DNA of 3,253 nucleotides from Naegleria gruberi (lineage: Eukaryota): NCBI GenBank assembly GCA_000004985.1, contig GG739230.1. One strand, 5' to 3'. The notes under the pieces were generated by a model, which had not been told where the DNA came from, ran no database searches, and saw only the letters and a program-made list of their open reading frames with translations. Of the stretch, positions 6 to 3,253 are shown in pieces; position 1 is the first letter of the stretch, and every line of letters starts with the position of its first letter. Made by a program: the position numbers and the translations under genes.

Positions 6-3000
6 ATGGTTCTTGAATCTGTATTATCTGAAGATAACAAGGTCTATTCAGACGCAAAGTCATACTGTCAACTGTTGTTGACTTGTGCCATTGCTTGTGA
101 AATTTCGTACATGCCTGATCCATTGTACACATTAAACAAGGAGTATTCCCAATTTGAGCATGGTATCAAGAAACTATGTAGTAGTATTACTAATGATATG
201 GACGCAAAGGCAACACTTGAAACAAGATATGTTGTGGCTGATTGTTCTGATGAAAATCGTAAAAGAATTGTTGTAGCAATTAGAGGTTCCTACTCCAAGT
301 CTGATATTTTGACAGATGTAAAGTTGATCCCTGCCATGAATTACTATGGATATGGCGTTTTACATAGTGGCTTCTTGGAAAGAGCCAAATTCATTCCACT
401 TGATTACTTTTTAGAAAAGATTAACGAAGGTTATCAAGTTGTTATTACTGGACACAGCATGGGTGGAGCAGTTGGGGCCATCCTTGCAACGCGATTGATG
501 CAAGCTACTGAAGCAAAGGCCATCAAGAAACCACCAATTCAATTCATTGGTTTTGGAGTTCCCTTGCTGGCTGATGTTAAGTTCAAAGAAAGAATTCTAA
601 AAGATGAACAGTCGAACTATTTCCATTTTTATATCAACGAAAAAGATTGTGTTCCAAGATCTATTAGTATTGTTAGTGAAATTATCAGTCTTTCTGCTGA
701 ATCAGATCTGATTGACCAAGTGTCAAACTTTCTAAAAACTGTTGTGTCGGCAATCTCCAGTATTACAGGAAGGGTTCATAGAGCAGAAATAATTAATTCT
801 GGTATATCTGTTTTCCAGTGGTTTTCTAAAGTAATTGCCAAGGTAATTCACAAATATGCACCACAGTTTTCTCCTTTTGGTAATCACATTCACATTTCCT
901 ATTCTAACAATAAGCAAATAGTTACTGAACATCAAGAGGAAATTTACGATTTAAGCGACAAGTTGGCAGAGATGTTCAGTAGAGAGAAACTGGAAATGAT
1001 TCAACACCACAAAATGACCAATTACTTTCATGAGGTGTTGAAGATTTGTGACTGTTTTGAATTCAAAAAAGATTGCTTTCTCAAAGGTTATTTCAATAAG
1101 AAAGCAGAAAAAATGCAAGATTTGCATGTTCCAGAAAATTGGTCCTTCGTTCCTCTTAGATGGGTTAAGAAGCAAGATGAAAATGCAGATGCCTTTGAAG
1201 GAAAGGAGTGCTACTCTGTTCGTCTGATTGTAAATGAAGCTACCGTTGATGTAAACTTGACACTAATTTCAAAGAAATTTGTGAATTACATTACAAAGGT
1301 TGAGATTATCAATCCTATTTGTCAGCAGGTGAGTGTTCGTGATGAGATGAATGGTGTTACTTATTGCCTAAGCGGAATCGTGAAAGACTTTTGGAAACAT
1401 AATACTTTGCATGTCAAATACCTACAAGTTAAGTTTACAACCCATTTCAACTCTGTTATTTGGGATCTTCCTGTTAGCCATGTAACTCCAGAAGTTGGAC
1501 AAAGTGTAAAGGAGGAGAAAATTTCCAAGTTACCAGTTGACCTCTTGTATATGTATGCTTTGAGTTTTATTTTCGCTACCAGCAAAGTTGAAGATGAATC
1601 GATAAGAGCGAAAAGAAGCAATTTACTCAGATTACTCGGAGATCTTGATGAACTCAATGAAGGGAGTACAATTCCAAAATCCAATATTGACAGTCAAGAG
1701 TTGAATATGAAACTATTAAGAATGTTCTTTGAGGGAACAAACGAGCAAGTTGGAGATTATGGTAAATTGTTCCATCTTAACTTTTCATTTTCCACTGAAA
1801 CAGCTAAATTGAGTGAAGAATCGTTGACTTTTAGAGATTTAGTTGATAAGAAATTTTTAACAGTTCTCCACCATAATTCAGTTCAATGTTCCTTAATTAA
1901 GGAAATGTTTTCTGAAAAGATTGGAATGGGAGCCAGTGCAGCAGGCCTTGGTATTAGCGCTGGTGTTTGTTCTGGTTTACTTTTCGTCCCAGGCATAAAC
2001 CTCTTTGCAATTGGTGCTCTGATAGCAACAGGAGTGGTGAGCTTGGCAAGTTTTGCAGCATTTATGGCCAATTATGTTAGGAAGAATAGAGATGTATTAG
2101 ATTATGAGCAAAATCTTAAAACATTCATGGACAGCTTTTATATAGTCTATTCACACAGTATACCTACTTTGTATCACTTTGAAAAATTGATTTTTGATTG
2201 GACTCGCACCAATTTATTGAAGTATGATGATAATGCTTACATTCTTGACCACTGGTCAGAAGTTTTCGGAAAGGGGTCTACCATTGGTTGGGTCAGTGTC
2301 TCCGAAAGGAAGAAAGTATTGAGAGTGTTGAAATCTGCGTGTATTAACTATCAAATCAGACAAGAATTGATGAAAAACTTCTACGTTGGAGTTGTTGGAA
2401 TGAAGAAATGTGGAAAATCAACATTTGTCGAAAAGTTCCTTCATAGAAATGCTAACGCCTCAAGTATAATAGCTACAACTGAAATTCAAGCATACCCACT
2501 AACAAGTAACTCATCCAATTTTGCTGTTTGGGACTTCCCACACTATGAAAGTCAGGATCATCTCCACAAAGTTCAATTTATTACTTCTCGTTTTTTATTG
2601 GACTATATTGTTGTTGTATACGATGCCCTTTCCAAATGTGATAAAGAAGAATGCAAAGAACATATCAATGTTATCAAACAAAGTAATGATCACAGATTCA
2701 TTGTTTTAATGAACAAGGCAGATGCGTTATATAAGCCAAACATGAATATGACAAAAGACCATTTTGATGACACAAGAAGGGAATGTTCCCTCAAACTTGG
2801 TGTAGATATTTCAAGAGTAATTTTGACCTCAGTTGACCCAGCTATAAATAATATCCACCAATTGAAACCTTGGGGTGTAAACATGATGTCAGAAATAAGA
2901 GATGTAATTTGGGAAGATTTAAAGACAACAGCAAAACGAACAGTTGCAGAGGTTGAACAAGAATGGAATAGTTTGAAGAAGTATGATGCCCTTAAAGTTA

Positions 3001-3215
3001 GCATTGAATTCAGAAGAAAGGGAAAGAATTCCTCCTTTTGCTTCTCTTGGGATAAATTAAAGAATTTGCAATTCAGAGAACTTGTAGAAGAGCTGAAGAA
3101 TGAATTTGATTATGACAATATCAAAATAACCACTAAGAATTCATTAGAAGAGATTTCAGATATGCAACAGTTACTAGAACATGAGGATCATGAATTCATT
3201 GTAGAAAAACAATAA
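6..3215 (+). CDS. Large multidomain protein (1069 aa): N-terminal class 3 lipase (alpha/beta hydrolase), central glycine-zipper transmembrane hairpin, C-terminal IRG/IIGP-like P-loop GTPase with helical tail
   Basis: A 3210-nt uninterrupted ORF from the ATG at 6-8 to the TAA at 3213-3215, followed by a second in-frame TAA. Recognisable catalytic motifs of two enzyme families occur in-frame (GHSMGG, DCVPR; GMKKCGKST, NKAD). Every other ORF in the window is under 110 aa and nested inside it. Only 5 nt lie upstream, so the true start could be further 5' of the window, although the N-terminus aligns sensibly with the start of Lipase_3 domains. Confidence 0.92.
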   Translation: MVLESVLSEDNKVYSDAKSYCQLLLTCAIACEISYMPDPLYTLNKEYSQFEHGIKKLCSSITNDMDAKATLETRYVVADCSDENRKRIVVAIRGSYSKSDILTDVKLIPAMNYYGYGVLHSGFLERAKFIPLDYFLEKINEGYQVVITGHSMGGAVGAILATRLMQATEAKAIKKPPIQFIGFGVPLLADVKFKERILKDEQSNYFHFYINEKDCVPRSISIVSEIISLSAESDLIDQVSNFLKTVVSAISSITGRVHRAEIINSGISVFQWFSKVIAKVIHKYAPQFSPFGNHIHISYSNNKQIVTEHQEEIYDLSDKLAEMFSREKLEMIQHHKMTNYFHEVLKICDCFEFKKDCFLKGYFNKKAEKMQDLHVPENWSFVPLRWVKKQDENADAFEGKECYSVRLIVNEATVDVNLTLISKKFVNYITKVEIINPICQQVSVRDEMNGVTYCLSGIVKDFWKHNTLHVKYLQVKFTTHFNSVIWDLPVSHVTPEVGQSVKEEKISKLPVDLLYMYALSFIFATSKVEDESIRAKRSNLLRLLGDLDELNEGSTIPKSNIDSQELNMKLLRMFFEGTNEQVGDYGKLFHLNFSFSTETAKLSEESLTFRDLVDKKFLTVLHHNSVQCSLIKEMFSEKIGMGASAAGLGISAGVCSGLLFVPGINLFAIGALIATGVVSLASFAAFMANYVRKNRDVLDYEQNLKTFMDSFYIVYSHSIPTLYHFEKLIFDWTRTNLLKYDDNAYILDHWSEVFGKGSTIGWVSVSERKKVLRVLKSACINYQIRQELMKNFYVGVVGMKKCGKSTFVEKFLHRNANASSIIATTEIQAYPLTSNSSNFAVWDFPHYESQDHLHKVQFITSRFLLDYIVVVYDALSKCDKEECKEHINVIKQSNDHRFIVLMNKADALYKPNMNMTKDHFDDTRRECSLKLGVDISRVILTSVDPAINNIHQLKPWGVNMMSEIRDVIWEDLKTTAKRTVAEVEQEWNSLKKYDALKVSIEFRRKGKNSSFCFSWDKLKNLQFRELVEELKNEFDYDNIKITTKNSLEEISDMQQLLEHEDHEFIVEKQ
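48..905 (+). other. Lipase class 3 (Lipase_3-like alpha/beta hydrolase) domain, aa ~15-300, probable triad Ser151/Asp214/His(294 or 296)
   Basis: CQLLLTCAIACEISY matches the N-terminal helix typical of this family. RIVVAIRGSYS (nt 264-296) matches the conserved 'VVAFRGT' strand. VVITGHSMGGAVGAILA has the nucleophile elbow GHSMG at nt 450-464 (Ser codon agc at 456-458). FYINEKDCVPRS has the Asp-x-VPR motif (Asp codon gat at 645-647), characteristic of Rhizomucor-type and DAD1/PLA1-type lipases. The His assignment is tentative. Confidence 0.85.
906..1922 (+). other. Central region of unknown function (aa ~301-639), soluble, mixed charge, Cys-containing (ICDCFEFKKDCF)
   Basis: I recognise no diagnostic catalytic motif here. 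There are no long hydrophobic stretches. A Lys-rich patch lies at aa 352-390 (KKDCFLKGYFNKKAEK...RWVKKQ). It could be a lipid/membrane-binding or regulatory linker domain. Confidence 0.3.
1923..2078 (+). other. Predicted transmembrane helical hairpin with glycine-zipper (aa 640-691)
   Basis: GMGASAAGLGISAGVCSGLLF-VPG-INLFAIGALIATGVVSLASFAAFMANYV is about 50 consecutive apolar/small residues. It has a G649xxxG653xxxG657 glycine zipper and a central Pro-Gly turn. It is flanked by the charged residues E638/K639 upstream and RKNRD downstream. This is locally the most GC-rich part of the gene, because of the GCN/GGN codons. Confidence 0.7.
2367..2885 (+). other. P-loop GTPase domain, IRG/IIGP-like (G1 2397-2420 GMKKCGKS; putative switch-I Thr824/825; G3-position WDFPH 2529-2543; G4 NKAD 2712-2723)
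   Basis: Walker A GxxxxGKS/T is preceded by the hydrophobic strand FYVGVV. NKxD, the guanine-specificity motif, is preceded by the hydrophobic strand RFIVLM. G1 to G3 is ~45 aa and G3 to G4 is ~60 aa, matching Ras-superfamily geometry. The W-D-x-P context of G3 and the GKS P-loop resemble immunity-related GTPases. The G3 Gly is replaced by His. Confidence 0.8.
2886..3212 (+). other. C-terminal charged, predicted alpha-helical/coiled-coil tail (aa 961-1069)
   Basis: It has heptad-like charged stretches (EIRDVIWEDLKTTAKRTVAEVEQEWNSLKKYDALK; LQFRELVEELKNEFDYD) and an acidic end (EHEDHEFIVEKQ). It is analogous to the helical C-terminal domains of IRG/dynamin-like GTPases. Confidence 0.45.
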
Positions 3216-3219
3216 TAAA
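3213..3219 (+). promoter_or_regulatory. Stop codon merged with AATAAA/TAAA polyadenylation-like signal (caaTAATAAAcc), followed by a T-rich tract at 3242-3250
   Basis: The stop TAA is at 3213-3215, AATAAA is at 3214-3219 and TAAA is at 3216-3219. About 22 nt later comes cTTTATTTTT. No GC-rich stem-loop precedes the T-run, so this does not look like a rho-independent terminator. It resembles a eukaryotic (e.g. trichomonad-type UAAA + U-rich) 3' end. Confidence 0.35.
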
Positions 3220-3253
3220 CCAATACAATCAAGTTTAAGACTTTATTTTTGTA

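What the first reader, a model, noticed from the sequence alone, without database searches (positions are those of the whole stretch)
258..665. Lipase catalytic machinery intact: predicted active, cytoplasm-facing class 3 lipase
The oxyanion-strand RGS, the nucleophile Ser in GHSMGG and the Asp in the D-x-VPR motif are all present in correct order and spacing (Ser151 to Asp214 is 63 aa). A downstream His (HIHISY, aa 294-296) is a plausible triad member. With no signal peptide, the enzyme is not a secreted digestive lipase. Its substrates would be intracellular or organellar membrane lipids. That fits an effector role better than a metabolic one.
Basis: partly seen in the sequence, partly recalled or inferred. 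Interest (0 to 1): 0.5.

Follow-up and report, generated by a model that had tools for sequence, protein, structure and literature searches.

The report
Membrane-anchored lipase fused to a GTPase

Summary

The proposed histidine is wrong. H294 and H296 sit inside core strand β8 and are conserved in only 6-7 of 62 relatives. The conserved histidine is H335 (56/64) in Q-H-H-K-M-T-N-Y-F, 43 residues after the invariant F-G, the same spacing as G214 to His257 in Rhizomucor lipase. Loss of Ser151 in relatives goes with loss of the oxyanion R-G and of H335, not of H294/H296.

"Cytoplasm-facing" is plausible. There is no signal peptide, and a hydrophobic hairpin (641-690) puts the lipase on the same side as the C-terminal Era/EngB-like GTPase. 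"Active" and "effector" are untested. The closest solved relatives, EDS1/PAD4, keep triads that are dispensable for immunity. I had no model coordinates, so triad geometry was not measured.

About 39 of the 150 best database representatives share the whole architecture, from amoebae, rotifers, Hydra, amphioxus and choanoflagellates. None is characterised.

The parts
6..3215 (+). Complete ORF, 1069 aa plus stop; identical to a Naegleria gruberi 'predicted protein'
   Evidence: P0001, 100% identity; contig length equals window length, so this is an mRNA record
54..1061 (+). Class 3 lipase (alpha/beta-hydrolase) domain, aa ~17-352
282..290 (+). R93-G94-S95 at the end of strand 87-92; S95 is the equivalent of the RML oxyanion residue Ser82
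   Evidence: G94 is present in 54/71 and R93 in 46/71 relatives. Their loss goes with loss of Ser151 (p=1.4e-5 and 2e-4, not phylogeny-corrected).
291..332 (+). Lid-equivalent segment YSKSDILTDVKLIP (helix 98-104), aligned to the RML lid SSIRNWIADLTFVP
   Evidence: pLDDT drops to 66-83 here, which is compatible with a mobile element.
450..467 (+). Nucleophile elbow G-H-S151-M-G-G between strand 144-150 and helix 152-170
   Evidence: Ser is present in 59/76 relatives, G149 in 71/75 and G153 in 71/75.
645..659 (+). D214-C-V-P-R: catalytic acid after strand 206-211
   Evidence: Asp is present in 67/69 relatives. It aligns to RML D203 and EDS1 D187.
651..836 (+). Three-helix insertion (helices 216-227, 233-253, 259-277) between the acid and strand beta8; same position as the aF-aH 'extended lid' of EDS1
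   Evidence: AF2 secondary structure, pLDDT 54-69. The EDS1 lid is described in bioRxiv 10.1101/2021.12.15.472806.
876..902 (+). It is equivalent to RML F213-G214-F-L-H-A and is not the catalytic His.
   Evidence: Strand 293-297. G292 is present in 64/64 relatives, H294 in 6/62 and H296 in 7/62. The profile aligns this strand to 'YRPFG' of PAD4/EDS1.
1002..1028 (+). Q-H-H335-K-M-T-N-Y-F: proposed catalytic histidine motif (H335 = nt 1008-1010)
   Evidence: H335 is present in 56/64 and Y340 in 62/65 relatives. It lies at the break between helices 326-335 and 337-350, with pLDDT 91. G292 to H335 is 43 aa, as is RML G214 to H257. Its loss goes with loss of Ser151 (p=0.014).
1203..1475 (+). Ig-like beta-sandwich, aa ~400-490 (includes the family motif [ST]-H-F-N at 479-482)
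1503..1910 (+). Helical domain, aa ~500-635 (includes the family motif L-P-V-D-L-L-Y at 509-515)
   Evidence: No solved relative and no Pfam match.
1926..2075 (+). Hydrophobic hairpin aa 641-690: two Gly/Ala-rich helices around a P-G-I-N turn, followed by R-K-N-R
   Evidence: Kyte-Doolittle means of 1.55-2.12 over aa 643-691. pLDDT <50, as expected for a membrane segment modelled without a membrane. Flanking residues.
2076..2372 (+). Helical linker before the G domain, with near-invariant Y700 and E726 and invariant R785
2373..2885 (+). TRAFAC GTPase domain, aa ~790-960: G1 G-M-K-K-C-G-K-S (798-805), G2 T824, G3 D-F-P-H (843-846, atypical), G4 N-K-A-D (903-906)
2997..3209 (+). C-terminal beta-beta-alpha-beta-(alpha)-beta unit, aa 998-1068 (beta-grasp-like by secondary structure only)
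   Evidence: It can be aligned only in the nearest relatives.

Best explanation
Shown: the N-terminal ~350 residues of this 1069-aa Naegleria gruberi protein are a class 3 (Lipase_3) alpha/beta-hydrolase domain. It has nucleophile Ser151 in G-H-S-M-G, acid Asp214 in D-x-V-P-R, the oxyanion-strand R-G-S95, a short lid-equivalent helix, and a three-helix insertion between the acid and strand beta8. Inferred from conservation, spacing and strand topology: the third triad member is His335 in Q-H-H-K-M-T-N-Y-F, not the HIHISY histidines, which lie inside strand beta8. Inferred: the domain is a competent serine acyl-hydrolase acting on lipids of the membrane it is tethered to. The tether is an Ig-like sandwich plus helical module leading to a hydrophobic hairpin (aa 641-690). 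The hairpin returns the chain to the same side of the membrane, where an Era/EngB-like GTPase and a small C-terminal domain follow. Because the GTPase needs cytosolic nucleotide and the N-terminus has no signal peptide, lipase and GTPase are both on the cytosolic face. Most likely mechanism (inference only): the nucleotide state or GTP-dependent self-association of the G domain controls whether the helical lid insertion uncovers the active site. That would make it a GTP-gated membrane lipase. The biological process it serves (membrane or organelle remodelling versus defence) is not determined.
Against: Triad geometry could not be measured, because the tools return no model coordinates. His335 follows beta8 only after a 13-residue disordered loop (302-314) and two helices, so its placement depends on the model (though local pLDDT is 91). 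The closest solved relatives, EDS1/PAD4, have intact triads that are dispensable for immune signalling in Arabidopsis, a lid that occludes the site, and no appreciable substrate cavity. Of the 63 relatives aligned at all three positions, 14 lack a complete triad while keeping GTPase motifs, so the lipase-like domain can persist without catalysis. The helical insertion is modelled at low confidence (pLDDT 54-69). The G3 motif is D-F-P-H rather than DxxG, so normal GTPase cycling is not assured. The hairpin is only moderately hydrophobic and aligns poorly across the family. No experimental data exist for any member (searches found no literature).
Confidence: 0.6

Rival explanations
1. A lipase-like domain that no longer hydrolyses lipids. 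As in EDS1/PAD4, the alpha/beta-hydrolase fold with its helical lid would serve as an interaction scaffold or small-ligand pocket. The GTPase would be the real engine of the protein.
Against: In this protein and in 49/63 relatives at only 20-30% identity, Ser, Asp and His are all retained. The oxyanion R-G is lost together with the Ser. That pattern is expected if catalysis is under selection in most lineages. The EP domain that gives EDS1 proteins their signalling function is absent.
Confidence: 0.25
2. One reading: the triad is Ser151-Asp214 plus a histidine of H-I-H-I-S-Y (H294 or H296).
For: These histidines follow the Asp by 80-82 aa and are conserved between Naegleria and Willaertia.
Against: Residues 293-297 form a core beta strand, whereas catalytic residues of alpha/beta hydrolases sit in loops after the strands. 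H294 and H296 are present in only 6/62 and 7/62 relatives and are not lost together with the Ser (p=1.0 and 0.33). The strand is the counterpart of RML 'F-G-F-L-H-A-G-E-E-Y-W-I', whose His is not catalytic; RML uses H257, 43 residues after the G.
Confidence: 0.03
3. A cell-autonomous defence effector. The GTPase would target the protein to pathogen-containing or damaged membranes, in the manner of immunity-related GTPases, and the lipase would attack them.
For: Foldseek finds IRGB10, Irgb6 and Irga6 among GTPase matches (E=6.6e-6 to 1e-4, up to 295 columns), and the profile search finds Irgb6 and Irgb10 at E~1e-7. The lipase domain is nearest to plant immune EDS1/PAD4. The phyletic spread is patchy, there are many divergent members, and active-site loss is recurrent, which is typical of conflict-related families.
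Confidence: 0.12

Closest known systems
Fungal class 3 triacylglycerol lipases (Rhizomucor miehei lipase, PDB 3TGL/4TGL; Rhizopus 6A0W)
   Different: The fungal enzymes are small, secreted, disulphide-bonded, single-domain enzymes. This protein has no signal peptide, a ~75-aa three-helix insertion between Asp and beta8, ~40 aa with extra helices between beta8 and the His, and 700 further residues (sandwich, helical domain, membrane hairpin, GTPase).
Plant EDS1 / PAD4 / SAG101 lipase-like domains
   Same: These are the best sequence-profile and fold matches among solved structures. S151 and D214 align to EDS1 S123 and D187. Both have the 'Y-x-P-F-G' strand and a helical insertion between the acid and that strand, at the position of the EDS1 aF-aH lid. 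The Asp-to-His distance is similar: 121 aa here and 130 aa in AtEDS1.
   Different: There is no EP domain. This protein is not from a plant, and it is fused to a membrane hairpin and a GTPase. EDS1 proteins act as heterodimeric receptors for nucleotide-derived signals, and the triad is dispensable in Arabidopsis. Nothing suggests that mode of action here.
Membrane-anchored, cytosol-facing class 3 lipases such as sn-1 diacylglycerol lipases DAGL-alpha/beta (comparison from general knowledge; not tested here)
   Same: A Lipase_3 catalytic domain is held at the cytosolic face of a membrane by hydrophobic helices, with a large regulatory insertion inside the catalytic domain.
   Different: DAGLs have four N-terminal transmembrane helices and no GTPase.
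Era/EngB-type (MMR_HSR1) TRAFAC GTPases; membrane GTPases with hydrophobic hairpins (mitofusin/Fzo1)
   Different: The hairpin precedes rather than follows the G domain. G3 is D-F-P-H instead of DxxG. No heptad-repeat fusion machinery was recognised, and the protein carries a lipase.

Membership tests
Class 3 lipase (Pfam PF01764, Lipase_3) | Match to the family HMM above the curated threshold | tested here: met
   61.3 bits against a cut-off of 22, E=1.2e-16, aa 89-220. 41/41 full-length relatives also match.
Class 3 lipase (Pfam PF01764, Lipase_3) | Alpha/beta-hydrolase fold superimposable on solved class 3 lipases | tested here: met
   [not shown]
Class 3 lipase (Pfam PF01764, Lipase_3) | Nucleophile Ser in G-x-S-x-G between a strand and a helix | tested here: met
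   G-H-S151-M-G; strand 144-150 and helix 152-170. It aligns to RML S144 and EDS1 S123.
Class 3 lipase (Pfam PF01764, Lipase_3) | Catalytic Asp after the following strand (D-x-V-P) | tested here: met
   D214 follows strand 206-211 and is present in 67/69 relatives. It aligns to RML D203 and EDS1 D187.
Class 3 lipase (Pfam PF01764, Lipase_3) | Catalytic His after the last core strand, within hydrogen-bond distance of Ser and Asp | tested here: inconclusive
   H335 is the only well-conserved His downstream of beta8 (56/64) and has the RML-like G-to-H spacing. Distances could not be measured because no coordinates were available. Sequence alignment of this tail to RML or to PDB entries was not significant.
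Class 3 lipase (Pfam PF01764, Lipase_3) | Oxyanion-hole residue equivalent to RML Ser82 | tested here: met
   R93-G94-S95 aligns to RML R80-G81-S82.
Class 3 lipase (Pfam PF01764, Lipase_3) | Measured acyl-ester hydrolase activity | not testable with these tools
   This requires recombinant protein and assays.
EDS1 / PAD4 / SAG101 family | C-terminal EP (EDS1-PAD4) helical domain following the lipase-like domain | tested here: not met
   [not shown]
EDS1 / PAD4 / SAG101 family | Lipase-like domain with a helical lid insertion between the acid and the 'Y-x-P-F-G' strand | tested here: met
   Helices 216-227, 233-253 and 259-277 precede F291-G292. The profile aligns this strand to PAD4 and EDS1 'YRPFG'. 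The EDS1 lid is described.
Era/EngB-like TRAFAC GTPases (Pfam PF01926, MMR_HSR1) | HMM match above threshold and G-domain fold | tested here: met
   [not shown]
Era/EngB-like TRAFAC GTPases (Pfam PF01926, MMR_HSR1) | Canonical G1 (GxxxxGK[ST]), G3 (DxxG) and G4 (NKxD) motifs | tested here: inconclusive
   G1 GMKKCGKS and G4 NKAD are present. G3 is D-F-P-H: His replaces the Gly here and in 43/66 relatives, while 15/66 have Gly.
Immunity-related GTPases (IRG, Pfam IIGP) | Match to the IIGP HMM or specific fold similarity above other GTPases | tested here: not met
   [not shown]
Secreted (digestive) lipases | N-terminal signal peptide | tested here: not met
   Residues 1-20 are hydrophilic with net charge -2. 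Helix 17-33 is part of the fold with pLDDT up to 97. This used simple criteria only, not a dedicated predictor.

The most novel reading that the evidence does not exclude
This protein represents an ancient, uncharacterised pan-eukaryotic family of GTP-gated membrane lipases. Its catalytic domain would be the closest non-plant relative of the EDS1/PAD4/SAG101 lipase-like domain, sharing its helical lid insertion. On that reading, the plant immune 'lipase-like' module would descend from an active, GTPase-coupled membrane lipase. The family's repeated loss of the catalytic Ser in animals and protists would parallel the EDS1-to-SAG101 transition from enzyme to scaffold.
Probability: 0.15. Interest if true: 0.7.

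Novelty: new variant of a known kind. Interest (0 to 1): 0.42.

Why it matters
On its own, an intact class 3 lipase motif set in a protist protein is ordinary. Three things lift it somewhat.

(1) Correcting the triad to S151-D214-H335 tells anyone who mutates or models this protein which residue to touch.

(2) The lipase is one module of a conserved architecture: lipase, Ig-like sandwich, helical domain, membrane hairpin and GTPase. Members occur in Heterolobosea, Amoebozoa, Rhizaria, stramenopiles, CRuMs, choanoflagellates, cnidarians, rotifers and amphioxus. I found no literature on it and only 'hypothetical' annotations. A lipase physically coupled to a GTPase switch would be a new way to regulate lipid hydrolysis at a membrane.

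(3) Among solved structures, its lipase domain is most similar to the plant immune proteins EDS1/PAD4, including the position of the lid insertion. That gives a testable lead on where that enigmatic 'lipase-like' domain came from and whether its ancestor was catalytically active.

Tried and rejected
(1) The word-indexed homology search found only the protein itself, an alternative gene model and the Willaertia ortholog. Repeating it with the 87-sequence alignment (my E-value cut-off of 1e-20 was also too strict) again returned only those three. The exhaustive HMMER search was needed.

(2) Triad geometry: the AF2 model is returned only as pLDDT and secondary structure, and no coordinates appear in /data. 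Ser-His-Asp distances could therefore not be measured.

(3) Aligning the beta8-to-His tail profile to RML and to the whole PDB gave no significant match. The H335 = RML H257 / EDS1 H317 equivalence rests on conservation, spacing and topology, not on a residue-level alignment. The profile hits to AtEDS1 that span the His were not among the alignments printed.

(4) The AFDB50 fold library was unavailable.

(5) PADLOC defence models gave no hit. NCBIfam gave only a sub-threshold small_GTP match.

(8) Literature searches for Naegleria class 3 lipase, Lipase_3+MMR_HSR1, lipase/GTPase/EDS1 architectures and PTSG_02605 found nothing on this family.

(9) Bacterial origin of the metagenomic members annotated 'EngB': the contexts inspected look eukaryotic (hAT transposase, HTH_animal, sparse genes).
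Full report
WHAT THE WINDOW IS. The 3253-nt window holds one long ORF on the + strand, nt 6-3215, 1069 aa. It has 5 nt of leader and a short A/T-rich trailer; all other ORFs are 107 aa or shorter. The protein is 100% identical to a Naegleria gruberi 'predicted protein' whose contig length equals the window length, so this is an mRNA-type record. A second N. gruberi model (P0002, 635 aa) is the same gene with aa 306-739 spliced out. The nearest homologue is a 1040-aa Willaertia magna protein, 58% identical and collinear.

CHECK OF THE OBSERVATION. The stated interval 258-665 corresponds to aa 85-220 and coincides with a Pfam Lipase_3 match (aa 89-220, E=1.2e-16, 61.3 bits against a cut-off of 22). 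Pairwise alignments put R93-G94-S95 on R80-G81-S82 of Rhizomucor miehei lipase (RML), Ser151 on Ser144 and Asp214 on Asp203. I recalled the RML sequence from memory and verified it as identical to PDB 3tgl_A. In Arabidopsis EDS1 the same residues align to S123 and D187, which are the published EDS1 triad positions.

THE HISTIDINE IS A DIFFERENT ONE. HIHISY is at aa 294-299, outside the stated coordinates. An exhaustive HMMER search of 1.84 billion cluster representatives gave 879 hits. I aligned the query with 86 of the best (A1, 87 sequences).
- In that alignment S151 is kept in 59/76, D214 in 67/69 and G292 in 64/64.
- H294 is kept in only 6/62 and H296 in 7/62.
- H335 is kept in 56/64 and Y340 in 62/65, giving a family motif H-x-[IML]-x-x-Y.
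- The S-D-H335 combination is intact in 49 of 63 sequences aligned at all three positions.
- Where the Ser has been lost, the oxyanion G94 (p=1.4e-5), R93 (2e-4), H120 (1.3e-3) and H335 (0.014) tend to be lost too. H294 (p=1.0) and H296 (0.33) show no such link. These Fisher tests are not corrected for phylogeny.
- In the AlphaFold2 model of the whole protein (mean pLDDT 83.4, pTM 0.80), residues 293-297 (N-H-I-H-I) are a core beta strand.
- That strand is the counterpart of RML 'F213-G214-F-L-H-A-G-E-E-Y-W-I', whose own His is not catalytic.
- H335 sits at the break between helices 326-335 and 337-350 (pLDDT 91), downstream of that strand. The alpha/beta-hydrolase topology requires the catalytic His to come after the last core strand.
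- The distance from the invariant Gly to the His is 43 residues both here (G292 to H335) and in RML (G214 to H257).
I conclude that the triad is S151-D214-H335. The limitation is that the tools return no coordinates, so I could not measure hydrogen-bond distances. Sequence alignment of this tail to RML or PDB entries was not significant.

By sequence profile, rice PAD4 is best (E=2.6e-31), against 3.5e-25 for the best fungal lipase. The Ser-to-Asp module alone finds EDS1, PAD4 and EDS1L at 2e-8 to 4e-3 but fungal lipases only at ~0.04. The profile also aligns the family's 'Y-x-P-F-G' strand to 'YRPFG' of PAD4 and EDS1. Between Asp214 and that strand the model has three helices (216-227, 233-253, 259-277; pLDDT 54-69). 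This is where EDS1 carries its 'extended lid' of helices aF-aH. The short helix 98-104 after the oxyanion Ser corresponds to the classical RML lid.

TOPOLOGY. Residues 1-20 are hydrophilic with net charge -2, and helix 17-33 is an integral, confidently modelled part of the domain. Homologues start at the same point. There is thus no sign of a signal or transit peptide, although this rests on simple criteria only. The only strongly hydrophobic stretch is aa 641-690: two Gly/Ala-rich helices around a P-G-I-N turn, followed by R-K-N-R. It is modelled with pLDDT <50, as expected for a membrane segment. A hairpin puts both flanks on one side. The C-terminal flank is a GTPase that needs cytosolic nucleotide, so the lipase is most simply placed on the cytosolic face.

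THE REST OF THE PROTEIN AND THE FAMILY. After the lipase domain the protein contains:
- The hairpin, then a helical linker with an invariant Arg785.
- A small beta-grasp-like C-terminal unit.
The GTPase motifs G1 (GMKKCGKS), G2 (T824) and G4 (NKAD) are canonical. G3 is D-F-P-H: His replaces the usual Gly in 43/66 relatives, while more distant members keep D-F-P-G.

About 39 of the 150 best representatives share the lipase + hairpin/linker + GTPase layout. All 41 full-length members tested match Lipase_3, and 36 match MMR_HSR1. Named members come from:
- Brachionus and Didymodactylos (rotifers)
- Hydra vulgaris
- Branchiostoma
- Salpingoeca rosetta
- Cavostelium (Amoebozoa)
- Paulinella (Rhizaria)
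- Rigifila (CRuMs)
- Chromulina and Dinobryon (stramenopiles)
- Willaertia
All are annotated as hypothetical, 'lipase, partial', 'fungal lipase-like domain-containing' or, wrongly, 'EngB'. The genomic contexts I inspected look eukaryotic. I found no publication on the family.

HOW IT MOST LIKELY WORKS. Shown: a class 3 lipase fold with nucleophile, acid, oxyanion residue and a conserved downstream His, covalently linked to a membrane hairpin and a GTPase. Inferred (confidence ~0.6): it is a competent serine acyl-hydrolase working on lipids of the membrane that anchors it, from the cytosolic side. The G domain's nucleotide state or GTP-dependent self-association would control access to the active site through the helical lid insertion.

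The main rival (~0.25) is an EDS1-like non-catalytic scaffold or ligand pocket. In its favour, EDS1's triad is dispensable in Arabidopsis, no substrate cavity was found, and 14/63 relatives lack a complete triad while keeping GTPase motifs. Against it, the triad and oxyanion residues are retained together across very divergent lineages.

COMPARISON WITH WHAT IS KNOWN. The domain is a member of the class 3 lipase family. The HMM, fold, Ser, Asp and oxyanion criteria are met; the His geometry is inconclusive; activity is untestable here. It is not a member of the EDS1 family, because the defining EP domain is absent. It nevertheless resembles EDS1 and PAD4 more than it resembles fungal lipases in sequence profile, fold score and the position of the lid insertion. 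It works most like membrane-anchored, cytosol-facing class 3 lipases such as DAG lipases; that comparison comes from general knowledge and was not tested. The GTPase belongs with Era/EngB-type TRAFAC GTPases but has an atypical G3.

VERDICT. As a lipase domain it is ordinary. As a lipase-hairpin-GTPase architecture conserved across eukaryotic supergroups and entirely uncharacterised, it is a new variant of a known kind and of moderate interest (0.42).

Noticed in passing
window 2532-2543 (aa 843-846): The GTPase G3/switch II motif is D-F-P-H instead of DxxG. His occupies the Gly position in 43/66 aligned relatives, while more distant members have D-F-P-G (15/66). The G domain may hydrolyse GTP unusually or act as a nucleotide-binding switch only.
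   Followed up: partly
window 921-2222 (aa 306-739): A second database gene model for the same N. gruberi gene (P0002, 635 aa) removes aa 306-739 as if it were an intron, joining ...NNKQI to YDDNAY.... Collinearity with Willaertia and AF2 pLDDT >90 over most of this span indicate that the long model in the window is the correct one.
   Followed up: partly
window 2190-2279 (aa ~729-758); L001 8001-11218: The Willaertia magna ortholog model lacks ~30 residues that are confidently folded in the Naegleria model (block mean pLDDT 80-95). This is probably a mis-called intron in the Willaertia annotation.
   Followed up: no
[not shown]
   Followed up: partly
window 2997-3209 (aa 998-1068): The C-terminal beta-beta-alpha-beta-(alpha)-beta unit (ubiquitin/beta-grasp-like by secondary structure) can be aligned only in the closest relatives. 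It was not searched separately.
   Followed up: no
window 2358-2360 (R785); also Y700 (nt 2103-2105) and E726 (nt 2181-2183): An invariant Arg and two near-invariant residues lie in the helical linker just upstream of the G domain across 41 full-length relatives. They may have a regulatory or arginine-finger-type role.
   Followed up: no
L003 4775-6796 (-): In a metagenomic contig carrying a family member (P0015), the gene 1.5 kb downstream encodes a Dynamin_N-domain protein. This is a single observation and its significance is unknown.
   Followed up: no
alignment A1 (relatives P0012, P0014, P0017, P0019, P0020, P0023, P0027, P0032, P0043 and others): The catalytic Ser is recurrently replaced (G, C, R, E) in full-length relatives that keep the GTPase G1 and G4 motifs. 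This points to repeated enzyme-to-pseudoenzyme transitions within the family.
   Followed up: partly
window 3210-3221: The ORF ends in tandem stop codons TAA TAA, which overlap an AATAAA hexamer.
   Followed up: no
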